From a virus, in the IMG/VR virus record IMGVR_UViG_3300022539_000610, positions 1 to 64,000 of that record: DNA of 64,000 nt; one strand, given 5' to 3'. The notes beneath the pieces were generated by a model. The model did no database searches and was not told where the DNA came from. It saw only the letters and a program-made list of their open reading frames with translations. Shown here piece after piece: positions 5,410-44,574 of this stretch. The translations under genes and the position numbers were made by a program. Every line of letters begins with the position of its first letter. The first letter of the stretch is position 1.

Positions 5410-5613
5410 CTAGGTACAAACTTCCTTTATCACAGCAGACAAGGTGAGCACTGCAATACGATACCGATCCACTGCATCAACAAGTTCAGGGTATTGTTTA
5501 CGTAATAAAGGTAATTTTTCCTTCCATTGAACCCACCTTGTCACATCCCCCTTTTCTTCCCAAAAATACCGTACCATATCCAAATCTTCATCTGTAATTT
5601 TTTCAGTCTCCAT
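5410..5613 (-). CDS. hypothetical protein
   Basis: Likely start METEK after purine-rich RBS. Confidence 0.55.
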   Translation of the reverse strand: METEKITDEDLDMVRYFWEEKGDVTRWVQWKEKLPLLRKQYPELVDAVDRYRIAVLTLSAVIKEVCT

Positions 5614-41611: not shown

Positions 41612-41812
41612 TTACTTGTTAGAGTTTTTACCAGTACCTGTACACTGTTGTCGTGTTTTTACCCATCCTCTTGTCTCTCTTCTACGTGGTCCATATGTAT
41701 GCAATCCAAGTTCACGAGCATTACTTCGATAGCCACGCCATCCATGTCGTGGAATTAAACCATTCTTTGTAAGCGTTACAGGCATCCAACAATCAGGACA
41801 TAGTATAATCAT
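41612..41812 (-). CDS. small Zn-binding hypothetical protein
   Basis: CPDC...RHG...C.GTG. Confidence 0.55.
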   Translation of the reverse strand: MIILCPDCWMPVTLTKNGLIPRHGWRGYRSNARELGLHTYGPRRRETRGWVKTRQQCTGTGKNSNK

Positions 41813-41820
41813 CTAAGAGT

Positions 41821-41988
41821 TCACTCTCTTCTACCTGAGTTAATACCATACTTCTTCTGGTAATAATATACTGGAGACAAGCCTATGTTTAGTCTTTGAG
41901 CAATAATACTTGGTGTTAACCCTTCCTTTGTTAACTTCCTAATACGTTCTATCTTTACCTCTGACAATTTACCAGATCGACCTGCCAT
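41821..41988 (-). CDS. 55-aa HTH protein (not in ORF track)
   Basis: LSEVKIERIRKLTKEGLTPSIIAQRLNIGLSPVYYY. Confidence 0.55.
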   Translation of the reverse strand: MAGRSGKLSEVKIERIRKLTKEGLTPSIIAQRLNIGLSPVYYYQKKYGINSGRRE

Positions 41989-42007
41989 ATCCATCTCCAA
42001 CGAATGT

Positions 42008-42745
42008 TTAAACTAATAAGGTTTTTTGTTTTTTCAAACTATCCCACATCTCATTTCCTTCCTGGGTACGAAAAGTAAGTTTGTTTGATTGAATAAAACG
42101 AGCCCTATCTACAATCTTACCAACAGGACGAGGTTTCTTAACTCCCAAAACACTGGCAAATTTCTCAGGGGTCACGATAATGTCTTTCCCTTCAATATAG
42201 TGAAACACATACTGAGGGTTGCTCTTATGTGCCTCATTAAACAACATAACTGAACGGTTGTAGTTTATCCAAATCTGCTCCAGGCATGTATAAGGATGAC
42301 CTTGTTTCCCTATCCACTGAATGTCTCTCTTCATCTTCCTTCGATAGAAAGATTGGATTATCTCAACAGGGTTTCTAAAAATTAAAACTATAGTGACTTT
42401 TTCCTTCGTATACTGTGAAAGCAAAGGGAGCCATGCCCATATACACAGAGAGTTAATAGGGGCCTTCCAGCCCCAGTTGGTAAAACAAGTTAGAGAGTTC
42501 TGAAGTTGAGCTTGCATTTCTTTCTTCACACTTGATGAAGGAGAGATGTCAGTGTGGTCAAATTTCAATCCATATCTATGCACACCACTGGAGCGAAGGA
42601 TCTTGTGAGAGATAGGTCTGTACTTCCTATTCTCACCCAGGAAGTCAATGGGAACACCTCCACTCATATCCACTCCACAATGGTGAAGGTATCGAGAAGC
42701 CAAAGATGTACCGCTTCCATGCATCCCGCAAAGGTAAAAAATCAT
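42008..42745 (-). CDS. sulfotransferase family protein
   Basis: GMHGSGTS PAPS-binding loop, WGWKAP, IFRNP..S; likely start MIFYLCG, 5 nt after the iscB stop. Confidence 0.85.
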   Translation of the reverse strand: MIFYLCGMHGSGTSLASRYLHHCGVDMSGGVPIDFLGENRKYRPISHKILRSSGVHRYGLKFDHTDISPSSSVKKEMQAQLQNSLTCFTNWGWKAPINSLCIWAWLPLLSQYTKEKVTIVLIFRNPVEIIQSFYRRKMKRDIQWIGKQGHPYTCLEQIWINYNRSVMLFNEAHKSNPQYVFHYIEGKDIIVTPEKFASVLGVKKPRPVGKIVDRARFIQSNKLTFRTQEGNEMWDSLKKQKTLLV

Positions 42746-42750
42746 TGCTT

Positions 42751-43932
42751 TTATACCCACACCAAAGTTCTGGAATGAAAAATCCAACTATCCAACTTTC
42801 CTACCACCCTATCAAAACCCCTTCCTGTAGAATCCTTTAAGCCGACAGAACTACCCCCATGCCATACTTCATAAATGCTATCAACTAATTTAATTAAATC
42901 CTTCGGTTGGTGAAAGTATCGTTGTTTTCTGATATTAATTCCATCTCTTCTCTGGATTTGCAATCGCCGATTATTCTTTCTTCTTTGGATTACACTGAAT
43001 GGTTTAGATCTAGTTTGCTTCGTTCCACTCGCTATAACGAAGGCATCATTTATATGTGACTTTTCCAAACCTAGATTCACTCTGTTTACTTTCGTTAAGT
43101 AGCCATACGTTCTTTCGATTTCGGGATACCATTTAGTGAATATACTTCTAATGATATTCATAAAAGAGGATTCTTTGTATTGTCTGGCCTTCTTCAACCT
43201 ATGTTCTAAATGTTGCTTATGCAACTTATCATGGCAACTCACATGAAGAAGGGCTCTGTTCTTGGGTCTATCTGTTCCCCCTTTACTTCTAGGTATGATA
43301 TGATGTAATTTCCATGGATCACTTTTCCTATATAGTTTACTACAGAGTTGACATCTACTTTTCTCTCTGGCTAAAACATACTCCTTTATGTTTTGGTATC
43401 CATACAAGTCCCCTTGCTGATACCCAGTGCCTTCGATGTCTGGATTTTCAAGTTTTTGGATATCAAAATTACCTAATTCAACAATTGTTTTAGATATAGG
43501 GAGAAAATCTTTTAACTTTTCTATGACTCTGAAATGGGTTCTAGTTCTCCTTTCTACTGAAGGGGGTAGCCAACCTTCTTTCCTTCTTCTATTGTTGAAT
43601 CTTGGTTCCCGATGTCTTAGTTTACCCCTACGATGCACTCGGTACATTCTACGATCGTCAAGTCGTCTTTTCGTATTACTGTCTACTCTCACCTCACCAC
43701 TAATTAGTTCTTCTTTCTTGGATACACAGGAAAAACCAATGTATTCATAGCCAGAGTCGATGCCGCAGGAAACATCCTGGGTATATTCCTTAGAATCATA
43801 AAGGAGCTGAATAGTGAAAGGTTTTCTCTTTACAACCTTTGCTTTGTCTTCTTTCAACAACAATCTGGCCACAACAGACCATGTTGGCATCAAAGGCTTT
43901 CCAGATTTTGATAAAACAAATACTTCTTTCAA
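42751..43932 (-). CDS. iscB: RNA-guided endonuclease IscB
   Basis: GKPLMPT (PLMP), GIDSG (RuvC-I), Arg-rich RRxRR helix, WLPPS, IVELG (RuvC-II), CxxC..HHIIPRSKGG..N..CHDKLH (HNH), SHINDA (RuvC-III); likely TTG start after GGAGG. Confidence 0.95.
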   Translation of the reverse strand: MKEVFVLSKSGKPLMPTWSVVARLLLKEDKAKVVKRKPFTIQLLYDSKEYTQDVSCGIDSGYEYIGFSCVSKKEELISGEVRVDSNTKRRLDDRRMYRVHRRGKLRHREPRFNNRRRKEGWLPPSVERRTRTHFRVIEKLKDFLPISKTIVELGNFDIQKLENPDIEGTGYQQGDLYGYQNIKEYVLAREKSRCQLCSKLYRKSDPWKLHHIIPRSKGGTDRPKNRALLHVSCHDKLHKQHLEHRLKKARQYKESSFMNIIRSIFTKWYPEIERTYGYLTKVNRVNLGLEKSHINDAFVIASGTKQTRSKPFSVIQRRKNNRRLQIQRRDGINIRKQRYFHQPKDLIKLVDSIYEVWHGGSSVGLKDSTGRGFDRVVGKLDSWIFHSRTLVWV

Positions 43933-43949
43933 ACTGTCCTCCAATTATA

Positions 43950-44197
43950 TACTCTACTTCTAAGAGTAGGTTGATTCCCTTCGTCAATGTTATCTTATGG
44001 TTTTTATTTACTACACTAAGACTTTCATCTTTATTTAATAGTAAATCGCAGAGTTCGGAACTAGGGAGGCATTCCGAAGTGCCTATATCATTCACAAGTA
44101 ACGTAGTACACGAAGTACTTAGACTAACCACCTCTTACGACATACATCACTGTATGTGCCTAAACCCCTGAGTTTATTAGGGTTTAGGTAGGTGGCT
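43950..44197 (-). ncRNA. omegaRNA (HEARO family)
   Basis: AGCCACC/GGUGGUU first helix, AGUCUAAG..CUACGUU, AUAGGCACUUCGGAAUGC..CUAGUUCCGAACUCUGCG, AACAUUGACGAAGGG; directly upstream of iscB. Confidence 0.88.
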
Positions 44198-44227
44198 CCC
44201 ATGCATGCCACAAAGATAGAGGATCAT
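44195..44227 (-). pseudogene. orphaned sulfotransferase 5' end (MILYLCGMHGS), in the predicted omegaRNA guide position
   Basis: ATGA-coupled to the upstream gene stop; peptide matches 42713-42745 at 10 of 11 residues. Confidence 0.8.
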
Positions 44228-44469
44228 TTTACAAATGCTGGATGAATTGGATGTACTGCCTTTTCCCAATATAAATCTAAAGCTGCTACAAACAAGGAGT
44301 GCACTTTTTGAACCTCTTCTTCAGTCTTGTATGAAAAGAACTCAAACACTCCAGAACAATACTTAAATCCCCAAGTCCAATAAAATTTCTCTTCTTCAAC
44401 TGAGTACACATTCTGCACATGAGGAAGAACAGCATGATACCGATTGTCAATTTGAAATGTTGATTTCAT
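44224..44469 (-). CDS. hypothetical protein
   Basis: RBS AAAGGAG. Confidence 0.6.
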   Translation of the reverse strand: MKSTFQIDNRYHAVLPHVQNVYSVEEEKFYWTWGFKYCSGVFEFFSYKTEEEVQKVHSLFVAALDLYWEKAVHPIHPAFVK

Positions 44470-44490: not shown

Positions 44491-44574
44491 TGGTGGGTGA
44501 GAGAGGAATCGAACCTCTATGCTTTCGCAACGACTTTACAGGCCATGGGACTCACCACACTGTCCAACTCACCC
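44491..44574 (-). tRNA. tRNA-Tyr(GUA)
   Basis: GGGUGAG/CUCACCC acceptor, anticodon loop CUGUAAA, long variable arm, GGUUCGAUUCC, encoded CCA. Confidence 0.92.

What the first reader, a model, noticed from the sequence alone, without database searches (positions are those of the whole stretch)
42713..44227. IscB/omegaRNA inserted into a gene and followed by a recoded replacement 5' end: a candidate RNA-guided homing drive with built-in self-immunity
Seen: the 33 nt at the 5' edge of the omegaRNA read ATG ATC CTC TAT CTT TGT GGC ATG CAT GGG AGC (MILYLCGMHGS, 44227-44195) and are ATGA-coupled to the upstream gene. Five nt after the iscB stop the sulfotransferase restarts with ATG ATT TTT TAC CTT TGC GGG ATG CAT GGA AGC GGT ACA (MIFYLCGMHGSGT, from 42745). 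The two copies differ at 7 of 33 nt; 6 differences are third-position and 5 codon changes are synonymous. IscB RuvC (D, E, D) and HNH residues look intact, and no TnpA is nearby. Established: the omegaRNA guide is the flank 5' of the scaffold, and IscB cuts target + 3' TAM, i.e. the element-free allele. Inference: the orphaned native gene start is the guide. The recoded copy restores the interrupted gene without splicing and avoids cleavage, with mismatches about 1, 10 and 13 nt from the predicted TAM (~AGCGG). This would let the element home into related co-infecting phages by cut-and-repair, like homing endonucleases that carry a recoded host-gene fragment, but RNA-guided. I do not know of this arrangement being described for IscB.
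Basis: partly seen in the sequence, partly recalled or inferred. Interest (0 to 1): 0.92.

Follow-up and report, generated by a model that had tools for sequence, protein, structure and literature searches.

The report
Phage IscB cassette with spare gene start
An intact RNA-guided nuclease (IscB with its guide RNA) sits 31-33 bases inside a phage sulfotransferase gene and is followed by a second, diverged copy of the gene's start that keeps the gene whole, so it could be a natural RNA-guided "cut the rival allele, carry your own resistant copy" element, but its cutting and spreading are not shown.

Summary
On the minus strand lie orf81, an orphan sulfotransferase start (ATGA-coupled), a full HEARO/omegaRNA, an intact 393-397 aa IscB, 5 nt, then a complete sulfotransferase-like gene. 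The two 33-nt gene starts match at 26/33; 6 of the 7 differences are at third codon positions.

New here:
- The copies differ as much as orthologues from different phages do (5-9/33), and 4 of 7 differences lie outside a 16-nt guide. The in-use start is therefore more likely a divergent natural allele brought in by recombination than an in-situ recoding.
- The cassette lacks the TnpA-type far-end hairpin tail that many phage IscB elements have. There is no TnpA in the 114-kb record.
- Among 76 phage IscB loci, only this one has such a host-gene duplication.
- Element-free alleles exist in relatives. Two of them (L004, L005) are about 99.7% identical from gene nt 34 onward but differ at 8/33 before it, a mosaic junction at the same nucleotide.
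- By OgeuIscB rules (NNRR TAM; mismatches at positions 1-14 block cutting), a resident-type allele is cuttable and the in-use copy is immune.

Homing remains unproven, and no close sister phage could be fetched. The scan has noted IscB cassettes flanked by scraps of a host gene in another phage (unchecked).

The parts
44224..44469 (-). orf81, the upstream gene. Its TGA stop overlaps the orphan ATG (ATGA coupling).
   Evidence: No Pfam or PHROG match.
44197..44227 (-). Orphaned resident gene start, sulfotransferase nt 1-31 (MILYLCGMHG-). With read-through into the scaffold it gives only a 16-aa ORF.
   Evidence: MILY- starts occur naturally in distant homologues L011-L015.
44197..44212 (-). Predicted 16-nt omegaRNA guide, TGTGGCATGCATGGGA (gene nt 16-31).
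   Evidence: This is the position directly 5' of HEARO model position 1. Guide length of 16-17 nt is from PMC9640706. Mismatch table. The 5' end of the RNA has not been mapped.
43970..44196 (-). omegaRNA scaffold (HEARO, RF02033), full length.
   Evidence: The 5' boundary coincides with the element boundary seen in pairs of related elements.
42751..43944 (-). iscB, intact, stop codon included. The likely start is TTG at 43932 behind a GGAGG, giving the 393-aa protein P0018.
42746..42750 (-). 5-nt spacer AAGCA between the iscB stop and the in-use ATG. No TnpA-type hairpin tail is present here.
42713..42745 (-). In-use copy of gene nt 1-33 (MIFYLCGMHGS). It carries three mismatches to the guide.
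   Evidence: This N-terminus is identical to that of the five closest homologues.
42008..42745 (-). Complete sulfotransferase-like gene, 245 aa.
   Evidence: 17 homologues with all invariant columns kept. The family profile hits CurM sulfotransferase 4gbm at 1e-7. 8 of 17 members hit PF13469.
41612..42000 (-). Two extra small genes, hth59 (HTH_7-like) and orf66, between the sulfotransferase and orf130. They are absent in relatives L003 and L005 and may belong to the imported block.

Best explanation
This is a TnpA-independent, 'tail-less' IscB-omegaRNA cassette lodged 31-33 nt inside the phage's resident sulfotransferase gene.

Shown:
- The resident gene start survives as an orphan that is still translationally coupled to orf81.
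- That orphan now occupies the guide position of the omegaRNA.
- Directly after iscB, a complete gene begins with a start that differs from the orphan at orthologue level.

Inferred origin: the cassette arrived by recombination between two divergent phage lineages, together with (or was rescued by) a foreign allele of the gene. This is how protein homing-endonuclease genes carry a piece of the donor's host gene. It is not an in-place duplication that was later recoded.

Inferred function: IscB, loaded with the orphan-derived guide, cuts sulfotransferase gene starts of the resident type in co-infecting relatives (target gene nt 16-31, then GYGG). The genome's own in-use copy escapes through mismatches at guide positions 2, 11 and 14. 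The orphan itself escapes because scaffold sequence, not a TAM, follows it. Repair of the cut rival from the cassette-bearing genome would either copy the cassette (homing) or overwrite the rival's flanking markers (marker exclusion). The sulfotransferase stays functional throughout and is probably translated by coupling to iscB.
For: Anatomy.

Origin of the two copies:
- 6 of the 7 differences are at codon position 3. Under unconstrained decay this has P about 0.007 (my calculation), so both copies diverged while they were coding.
- The orphan-to-in-use distance (7/33) lies inside the 5-9/33 range seen among orphan, in-use, L003, L004 and L005. Over the whole gene, 37-43% of same-residue codons differ between the divergent pairs.
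- The five nearest homologues begin MIFYLCGMHGS, like the in-use copy.

State of the cassette:
- It lacks the far-end tail (hairpin, then GGGTTTYCTT, then ATAAA or ATGAA) that about 20 phage IscB elements carry, although its C-terminus (..IFHSRTLVWV) is homologous to theirs. No far-end hairpin is predicted.
- There is no TnpA and only a single copy in the record.
- IscB and the omegaRNA are intact.

Targeting logic:
- The OgeuIscB rules come from PMC9640706: NNRR TAM, and mismatches at positions 1-14 abolish cutting.

Population evidence:
- Element-free alleles exist.
- L004 and L005 show 2 differences in about 700 nt from gene nt 34 onward, 8/33 differences before it, and unrelated upstream genes. 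This is an independent junction at the same nucleotide as the window's orphan/scaffold junction.

Literature context:
- The omegaRNA guide lies outside the transposon end, and the TAM abuts the other end (bioRxiv 10.1101/2023.03.14.532601).
- TnpA-independent 'non-restorative' homing among co-infecting phages is proposed in theory (PMC13565253).
- Nuclease genes sit at the boundaries of genetic exchange between phages (PMC10448857).
Against: - This is a single locus. No sister phage with the same upstream gene could be fetched, so neither a filled/empty polymorphism nor usable homing arms are shown.
- The three natural alleles available have 1-2 guide mismatches at positions 2, 5 or 11. By the same OgeuIscB rule they would not be cut either.
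- The TAM of this IscB is unknown. Its TAM-interacting C-terminus does not align with OgeuIscB. Tail-bearing relatives lie next to ATAAA/ATGAA, a motif that also occurs across the window's iscB stop (GTATAAAAG). This allows an ordinary insertion next to a scar that was already there.
- 0 of 75 other phage IscB loci show a host-gene duplication.
- The closest IscB (72% identity) lies on a contig whose length matches none of the sulfotransferase contigs.
- No promoter stands out for the omegaRNA.
- The L004/L005 junction could be ordinary recombination, or a metagenome-assembly join.
Confidence: 0.45

Rival explanations
1. Passenger in a pre-existing scar. A module exchange between phages left a 33-nt scrap of one sulfotransferase allele just upstream of another complete allele. 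An ordinary IS200/IS605-type IscB element later landed in the short non-coding gap next to an ATAAA-type TAM and then lost its far-end tail. On this reading the guide equals the scrap only because the guide is always the flank, and IscB at most defends its own site.
For: - Tail-bearing relatives end next to ATAAA or ATGAA.
- The window has ATAAA across the iscB stop, as in L022/L023, where the TAM supplies the stop codon.
- The gene start is a synteny break among relatives, and nt 33|34 is a junction even without any IscB.
- About half of the phage IscB loci are tail-less, with the next gene starting within 5-20 nt.
Against: - It needs the element to have hit exactly the 9-nt gap beside the scrap, among many possible AT-rich intergenic sites.
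- The ATAAA may simply be a stop codon plus an A-rich leader.
- It gives no reason why the tail was removed flush with the stop codon.
- It does not explain why the junction recurs at nt 33.
Confidence: 0.25
2. Competitor-killing nuclease without homing. The cassette is fixed in this phage lineage and serves the phage by cutting the genomes of co-infecting relatives that carry the resident-type allele. The element itself is not copied into them.
For: - IscB and the omegaRNA are intact although transposon function is lost.
- Known relatives have unrelated upstream genes, which would leave little left-hand homology for homing.
- Phage intron endonucleases are known to act in competition between co-infecting viruses (PMC11620839, title and abstract).
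Against: - It shares the unknowns of the main reading: the TAM, and the absence of a perfectly matching target in hand.
- A sulfotransferase is an odd choice of target for killing, unless any double-strand break is enough.
Confidence: 0.15
3. The gene start was duplicated in place and then recoded under selection for mismatches to the guide.
For: The differences are synonymous-biased and three fall in the 16-nt protospacer.
Against: - Four of the seven differences lie outside the protospacer.
- Divergence is already at orthologue and near-saturation level (6 of 9 variable third positions), far more than immunity needs.
- IS200/IS605 insertion makes no target duplication (PMC13565253).
Confidence: 0.08
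4. Assembly artefact or chance similarity.
For: The record is a metagenome-derived viral contig, and read-level checks were not possible.
Against: - The repeat is imperfect, so it cannot have misled an assembler.
- The same sulfotransferase protein is recorded on two contigs of about 114 kb.
- Chance is excluded, at about 3e-10.
Confidence: 0.03

Closest known systems
IscB-omegaRNA (OMEGA) elements of the IS200/IS605 family: OgeuIscB (PDB 7xht, 7utn) and ISGst5 of Geobacillus stearothermophilus
   Same: - An RRXRR/PLMP-RuvC-HNH protein with intact catalytic residues.
- A full HEARO omegaRNA directly upstream on the same strand.
- The guide is the DNA flanking the scaffold's 5' end.
- It has the same expected job: cut the element-free allele so that repair restores or copies the element.
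   Different: - There is no far-end hairpin tail and no TnpA, and the element is single copy.
- It sits inside a gene rather than at a TAM in a tolerated site.
- It is followed by a second copy of the interrupted gene's start.
- The protein is about 100 aa shorter than OgeuIscB, with a TAM-interacting end that does not align to it.
Free-standing homing-endonuclease genes that carry or create a partial duplicate of the host gene. Examples are the C-terminal atp6 and cob duplications with LAGLIDADG ORFs between gene and scrap in fungal mitochondria (PMC6279837). The atp6 hybrid gene of Allomyces is cited from my own knowledge (Paquin, Laforest & Lang 1994).
   Same: - A nuclease gene lies between an intact gene and an orphaned fragment of the same gene.
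- The replacement piece is a divergent allele that keeps the gene working and is expected to resist the nuclease.
   Different: - Here the nuclease is RNA-guided, and its specificity is written by the orphan fragment itself.
- The duplicated piece is the 5' end rather than the 3' end.
- The host is a phage, not an organelle.
Intronless homing and marker exclusion by T4 Seg/Mob endonucleases, and 'HEG islands' (PMC13565253; PMC10448857)
   Same: - A nuclease in one phage cuts a slightly different allele in a co-infecting relative.
- Self and non-self are told apart by a few substitutions in a conserved gene.
- Nucleases sit at the boundaries of genetic exchange.
   Different: Those systems recognise their targets by protein and involve no gene interruption or duplication.
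Synthetic cleave-and-rescue / home-and-rescue gene drives (Cas9, guides to a gene, and a recoded rescue copy; my own knowledge)
   Same: The logic is the same: an RNA-guided cut of the wild-type allele, linked to a cleavage-resistant working copy.
   Different: - This arrangement is natural and sits in a phage.
- The rescue piece is only the first 33 nt, and is probably a natural allele.
- The target gene is not known to be essential.
- Drive is unproven.

Membership tests
IscB-omegaRNA (OMEGA) system | IscB protein with an RRXRR/PLMP N-terminus, a split RuvC and an inserted HNH, with catalytic residues present | tested here: met
   Pfam RRXRR 6.8e-59 and HNH 8.4e-12. D59, E152, H210/H211 and D296 are invariant among the 13 nearest IscBs. 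OgeuIscB-type PDB chains match at about 1e-48.
IscB-omegaRNA (OMEGA) system | A cognate omegaRNA (HEARO) directly upstream on the same strand | tested here: met
   RF02033 at 112.7 bits against a gathering score of 83, model positions 1-211, ending 26 nt before the iscB ORF as listed.
IscB-omegaRNA (OMEGA) system | RNA-guided, TAM-dependent DNA cleavage | not testable with these tools
   Only inferred from intact motifs. The TAM is unknown.
Mobile IS200/IS605-family (ISC) transposon | Both transposon ends with subterminal hairpins: the scaffold end, plus a far-end tail next to a TAM | tested here: not met
   The scaffold end is present. The far-end tail seen in L021, L028, L030, L033, L042, L056, L063 and others is absent: the stop codon is followed by AAGCA and then ATG. 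No hairpin is predicted.
Mobile IS200/IS605-family (ISC) transposon | TnpA (Y1 HUH transposase) in the element or the genome, and more than one copy | tested here: not met
   No PF01797 match and only one IscB/HEARO in the 114-kb record. The record is only about 53% complete.
Homing element (nuclease gene that spreads by cut-and-repair) | Element-free alleles of the same site exist in related genomes | tested here: met
   In L003, L004 and L005 the gene is uninterrupted and there is no IscB on the contig. These relatives are only 74-76% identical in protein.
Homing element (nuclease gene that spreads by cut-and-repair) | The nuclease's target equals the element-free allele, and the carrier is immune | tested here: inconclusive
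   The guide has 0 mismatches only to the orphan. The in-use copy has 3 mismatches (positions 2, 11, 14). The natural alleles in hand have 1-2. GYGG fits OgeuIscB's NNRR TAM. No perfectly matching natural allele was found.
Homing element (nuclease gene that spreads by cut-and-repair) | Presence/absence polymorphism among close relatives, with homology on both sides | not testable with these tools
IMG/VR holds no other family member.
Sulfotransferase (PF13469-like) | Sequence membership and a conserved N-terminal PAPS-loop-like motif (GMHGSGTS) | tested here: met
   The family profile matches CurM sulfotransferase 4gbm at 1.1e-7. 8 of 17 members hit PF13469. The motif columns are invariant. The window's protein alone is below Pfam thresholds.

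The most novel reading that the evidence does not exclude
This is a natural RNA-guided cleave-and-rescue homing element. An IscB cassette has lost transposase dependence. Its guide is the orphaned start of the gene it interrupts, and it carries a cleavage-resistant replacement gene start. It therefore spreads between co-infecting phages, or excludes their markers, without harming its carrier. The mosaic junction at nt 33|34 in element-free relatives would then be its footprint in the population.
Probability: 0.3. Interest if true: 0.88.

Novelty: new variant of a known kind. Interest (0 to 1): 0.66.

Why it matters
IscB and TnpB are known to protect their own transposon by cutting the emptied donor site. 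Spread between co-infecting phages without a transposase has so far only been proposed in theory (PMC13565253).

This locus has every part needed to test that idea directly:
- an intact nuclease and guide RNA;
- a readable 16-nt guide;
- a natural candidate target (the resident-type gene start);
- a natural resistant allele in the same genome.

If it works, it would be the RNA-guided counterpart of homing-endonuclease genes that carry a piece of their host gene, and a natural precedent for synthetic cleave-and-rescue drives. It would also show how easily such nucleases are re-aimed, because any recombination that changes the flank rewrites the target.

If it does not work, the locus still documents how tail-less IscB cassettes become fixed in phage genes without destroying them.

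Tried and rejected
I could not see the contigs of the closest sulfotransferases (P0002-P0004) or the closest IscBs (P0019-P0025).

Searches that found nothing useful:
- The phage GenBank collection has no DNA match.
- IMG/VR has no other member of this sulfotransferase family. A degenerate search for the YLCGMHG-coding DNA gave only unrelated hits.
- An omegaRNA motif search found only L002's contig.
- Cellular genomes hold IscBs no closer than 47% identity, so the TAM of the nearest clade could not be read.

Ideas tested and dropped:
- Flank duplication as a general feature of phage IscB loci was rejected. None of 75 other loci shows it, and the high scorers there are just the two transposon-end hairpins.
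- A hidden far-end hairpin, either in the iscB 3' end or in the in-use copy, was rejected.
- A dedicated omegaRNA promoter was not found; promoter-like sites are no more frequent than in shuffled sequence.
- A compositional sign of recent import was not found. GC and GC3 are similar across the region.
- Splicing (an IStron or intron) was considered and rejected. The only structured RNA is HEARO, and the gene has its own start.
Full report
**1. What is there**

The window is the first 64 kb of a 114-kb IMG/VR virus record that is estimated to be about 53% complete. Everything in this region is read on the minus strand. In order:

- An 81-aa ORF (44469-44224).
- A 33-nt open start, ATGATCCTC...GGGAGC (44227-44195), whose ATG overlaps the ORF's TGA stop.
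- A full-length HEARO/omegaRNA (Rfam RF02033, 44196-43970, 112.7 bits, model positions 1-211).
- iscB (43944-42751; Pfam RRXRR 6.8e-59 and HNH 8.4e-12).
- The five bases AAGCA.
- A 245-aa gene starting at 42745.

That gene belongs to a small family of uncultured-phage proteins (17 members).
- The family profile matches the CurM sulfotransferase (4gbm, 1e-7).
- Half of the members hit Pfam Sulfotransfer_3.
- An APS kinase lies just upstream, so the sulfation context fits.

**2. The repeat is real**

- The repeat finder reports 42713-42746 against 44195-44228, 27 of 34 matches. It is the longest repeat in the region.
- The chance of such a match at a fixed place is about 3e-10.
- Seven of 33 coding positions differ, six of them at codon position 3. 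Five of the six changed codons are synonymous.
- If an orphan had decayed freely, at least 6 of 7 changes at third positions would have P about 0.007 (my calculation). Both copies therefore diverged while they were working gene starts.
- The first helix of the omegaRNA uses G44196 and C44195. Strictly, gene nt 1-31 are orphan flank and the last GC is common to both copies.

**3. The nuclease system looks functional but is no longer a transposon**

- The 12 closest IscBs (56-72% identity) align end to end with the catalytic columns invariant. OgeuIscB-type structures are the best PDB match.
- Only one IscB/HEARO and no Y1 transposase are present in the record.

I fetched 80 IscB loci from viral contigs and located their omegaRNAs in the first 40 of those loci. 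Pairs of related elements in different contexts define the element's borders.
- The 5' border is HEARO position 1.
- In many elements the 3' border is a 55-65-nt tail after the stop codon. The tail has a hairpin like the 5' one, then GGGTTTYCTT, then a conserved ATAAA or ATGAA.
- That conserved motif is the TAM next to the transposase-defined left end (orientation as in bioRxiv 10.1101/2023.03.14.532601).

The window's IscB ends at the homologous residue (..IFHSRTLVWV against ..IYRQGSLVWN), but the tail is missing and no hairpin is predicted. About half of the phage loci are tail-less in the same way, with the next gene starting 5-20 nt after the stop.

**4. The duplication is peculiar to this locus**

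- I compared the 60 nt before each scaffold with the 300 nt after each iscB stop. I then repeated this with wider windows for 75 loci.
- The window ranks first (z = 5.6 and 8.8). The only other strong signals are the two transposon-end hairpins.
- Flank duplication is therefore not a family habit.
- Earlier notes of this scan describe a rumen-phage IscB cassette flanked by 34-bp scraps of a wrecked gene (e1-5778101 and e1-5778097). I did not check these.

**5. Element-free alleles and where the copies come from**

- A metagenome scan with the family alignment returned three contigs (L003, L004, L005) whose proteins are 74-76% identical to the window's.
- In these contigs the gene is uninterrupted, begins ATGATCTTY..., and there is no IscB on the contig.
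- Downstream synteny is kept (orf130, orf161, orf78), but the upstream gene differs in each. In L004 it is also ATGA-coupled.
- Among the orphan, the in-use start and these three alleles, all pairwise distances over the first 33 nt are 5-9. Over the whole gene, 37-43% of identical-residue codons differ between the divergent lineages.
- The orphan and the in-use copy (7 differences, 6 of 9 variable third positions) are therefore as far apart as orthologues from different phages.
- Four of the seven differences lie outside a 16-nt guide.
- The five closest homologues start MIFYLCGMHGS, like the in-use copy. MILY- starts occur in more distant members.
- I conclude that the in-use start is a natural allele from another lineage, brought next to the cassette by recombination. 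It is not an in-place copy recoded for immunity.

**6. An independent junction at the same nucleotide**

- L004 and L005 differ at only 2 positions in about 700 nt from gene nt 34 onward.
- They differ at 8 of the first 33 nt, the last difference being at nt 33.
- Upstream of the gene they are unrelated.
- In element-free phages, therefore, a recombination joint lies at nt 33|34, within two bases of the window's orphan/scaffold joint.
- If joints fell evenly over the shared roughly 950 nt, a hit this close would be expected about once in a hundred tries.
- This is what a site-specific break near nt 30 would leave if it were repaired from a resistant allele, with little homology on the left.
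- Ordinary recombination or an assembly join cannot be excluded.

**7. Would the guide work?**

The rules below are taken from OgeuIscB (PMC9640706):
- 16-17 nt of guide.
- An NNRR TAM read through main-chain contacts.
- Loss of cleavage with mismatches at positions 1-14.

Applied to this locus:
- The predicted guide is TGTGGCATGCATGGGA.
- The orphan DNA is followed by GCCA, which is not RR, so it is protected.
- The in-use copy has a permissive GCGG but carries mismatches at positions 2, 11 and 14, so it is protected.
- A resident-type allele followed by GYGG would be cut.

Cautions:
- L003, L004 and L005 carry 1-2 mismatches each, so none of them is a demonstrated target.
- The TAM-interacting end of this IscB does not align with OgeuIscB.
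- Tail-bearing relatives are found beside ATAAA/ATGAA. An ATAAA also spans the window's iscB stop. This keeps alive an ordinary 'insertion next to an older scar' history.

**8. Reading**

Best-supported explanation (0.45 as a whole; the structural and origin part alone about 0.75):
- A tail-less IscB cassette entered the resident gene's 5' end by recombination between divergent phages.
- The gene is kept whole by a foreign allele's start.
- The orphan now programs the nuclease against resident-type alleles, giving homing or marker exclusion in co-infections.

Rivals:
- A passenger element in a pre-existing scar (0.25).
- A fixed competitor-killing nuclease without homing (0.15).
- An artefact (0.03).

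**9. Comparison with what is known**

- It is a member of the IscB-omegaRNA family by protein and RNA.
- It fails the tests for a mobile IS200/IS605 transposon: no far-end tail, no TnpA, single copy.
- It works most like free-standing homing-endonuclease genes that sit between a gene and an orphaned duplicate of part of that gene (fungal mitochondrial atp6 and cob; PMC6279837).
- It also resembles T4-type intronless homing, where a few substitutions separate self from target (PMC13565253).
- TnpA-independent homing of OMEGA elements among phages has been proposed in theory. I found no description of an IscB cassette with a spare host-gene start.
- I rate it a new variant of a known kind.

**10. 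Limits**

- No close sister phage, no reads and no RNA data could be obtained.
- The record is incomplete.
- The key steps, namely the guide's 5' end, the TAM, cleavage and copying, are all inferred.

Noticed in passing
L004:780-812 and L005:126-158 (metagenome contigs Ga0315533_1036842 and Ga0315549_1109291): Two element-free relatives are about 99.7% identical from sulfotransferase nt 34 to about nt 750. They differ at 8 of the first 33 nt and are unrelated upstream. This is a sharp mosaic joint at nt 33|34. A second small patch of 6 differences in 12 nt lies early in the next gene (about offset 755-765).
   Followed up: partly
window 41612-42000 (minus strand): Two small genes sit between the sulfotransferase and orf130: a 59-aa HTH_7/invertase-like DNA-binding protein and a 66-aa Cys-rich ORF. 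Relatives L003 and L005 have these two neighbours directly adjacent. The sulfotransferase is therefore flanked by insertions on both sides.
   Followed up: partly
L018-L097 (IMG/VR IscB loci): Phage-borne IscB elements fall into two classes. One has a TnpA-type far-end tail (hairpin, GGGTTTYCTT, then ATAAA or ATGAA). The other is tail-less, with the next gene starting 5-20 nt after the iscB stop. Roughly half of the loci inspected are tail-less.
   Followed up: partly
L022:4185-4225 and L023:4185-4225: Two 99%-identical IscB elements sit in different contexts. Their reading frame runs through the far-end tail, and the stop codon is supplied by the flanking ATAAA motif, that is, by the TAM.
   Followed up: no
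L055:1529-1777 and 2711-2971: Two HEARO omegaRNAs lie about 1.2 kb apart with a tRNA gene (2454-2527) between them, upstream of a single iscB. The first looks like a stand-alone omegaRNA.
   Followed up: no
L020:4302-4818: Five tRNA genes follow an IscB element, beginning about 100 nt after its stop codon, in a 55-kb viral contig.
   Followed up: no
window 44491-44574 (minus strand): A tRNA-Tyr (GTA) with a long variable arm lies between a 44-aa ORF and orf81. It sits inside the block (APS kinase to orf81) that separates the Gfo/Idh/MocA gene from the sulfotransferase. In distant relatives (L006-L015) those two genes are adjacent.
   Followed up: partly
L002:3097-3774 and 5424-5470: In the contig with the closest viral IscB (55% identity), the start of the gene upstream of the element (MTIARDI...) recurs as a short frameshifted fragment about 240 nt after iscB. 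The contig has several paralogues with similar N-termini, so this may be family repetition rather than a flank duplication.
   Followed up: no
proteins P0021 and P0024: Two different IscBs (61-62% identical to the window's) are recorded on one 11,583-nt JGI contig, so close relatives can occur in two copies near each other. The DNA could not be fetched.
   Followed up: no
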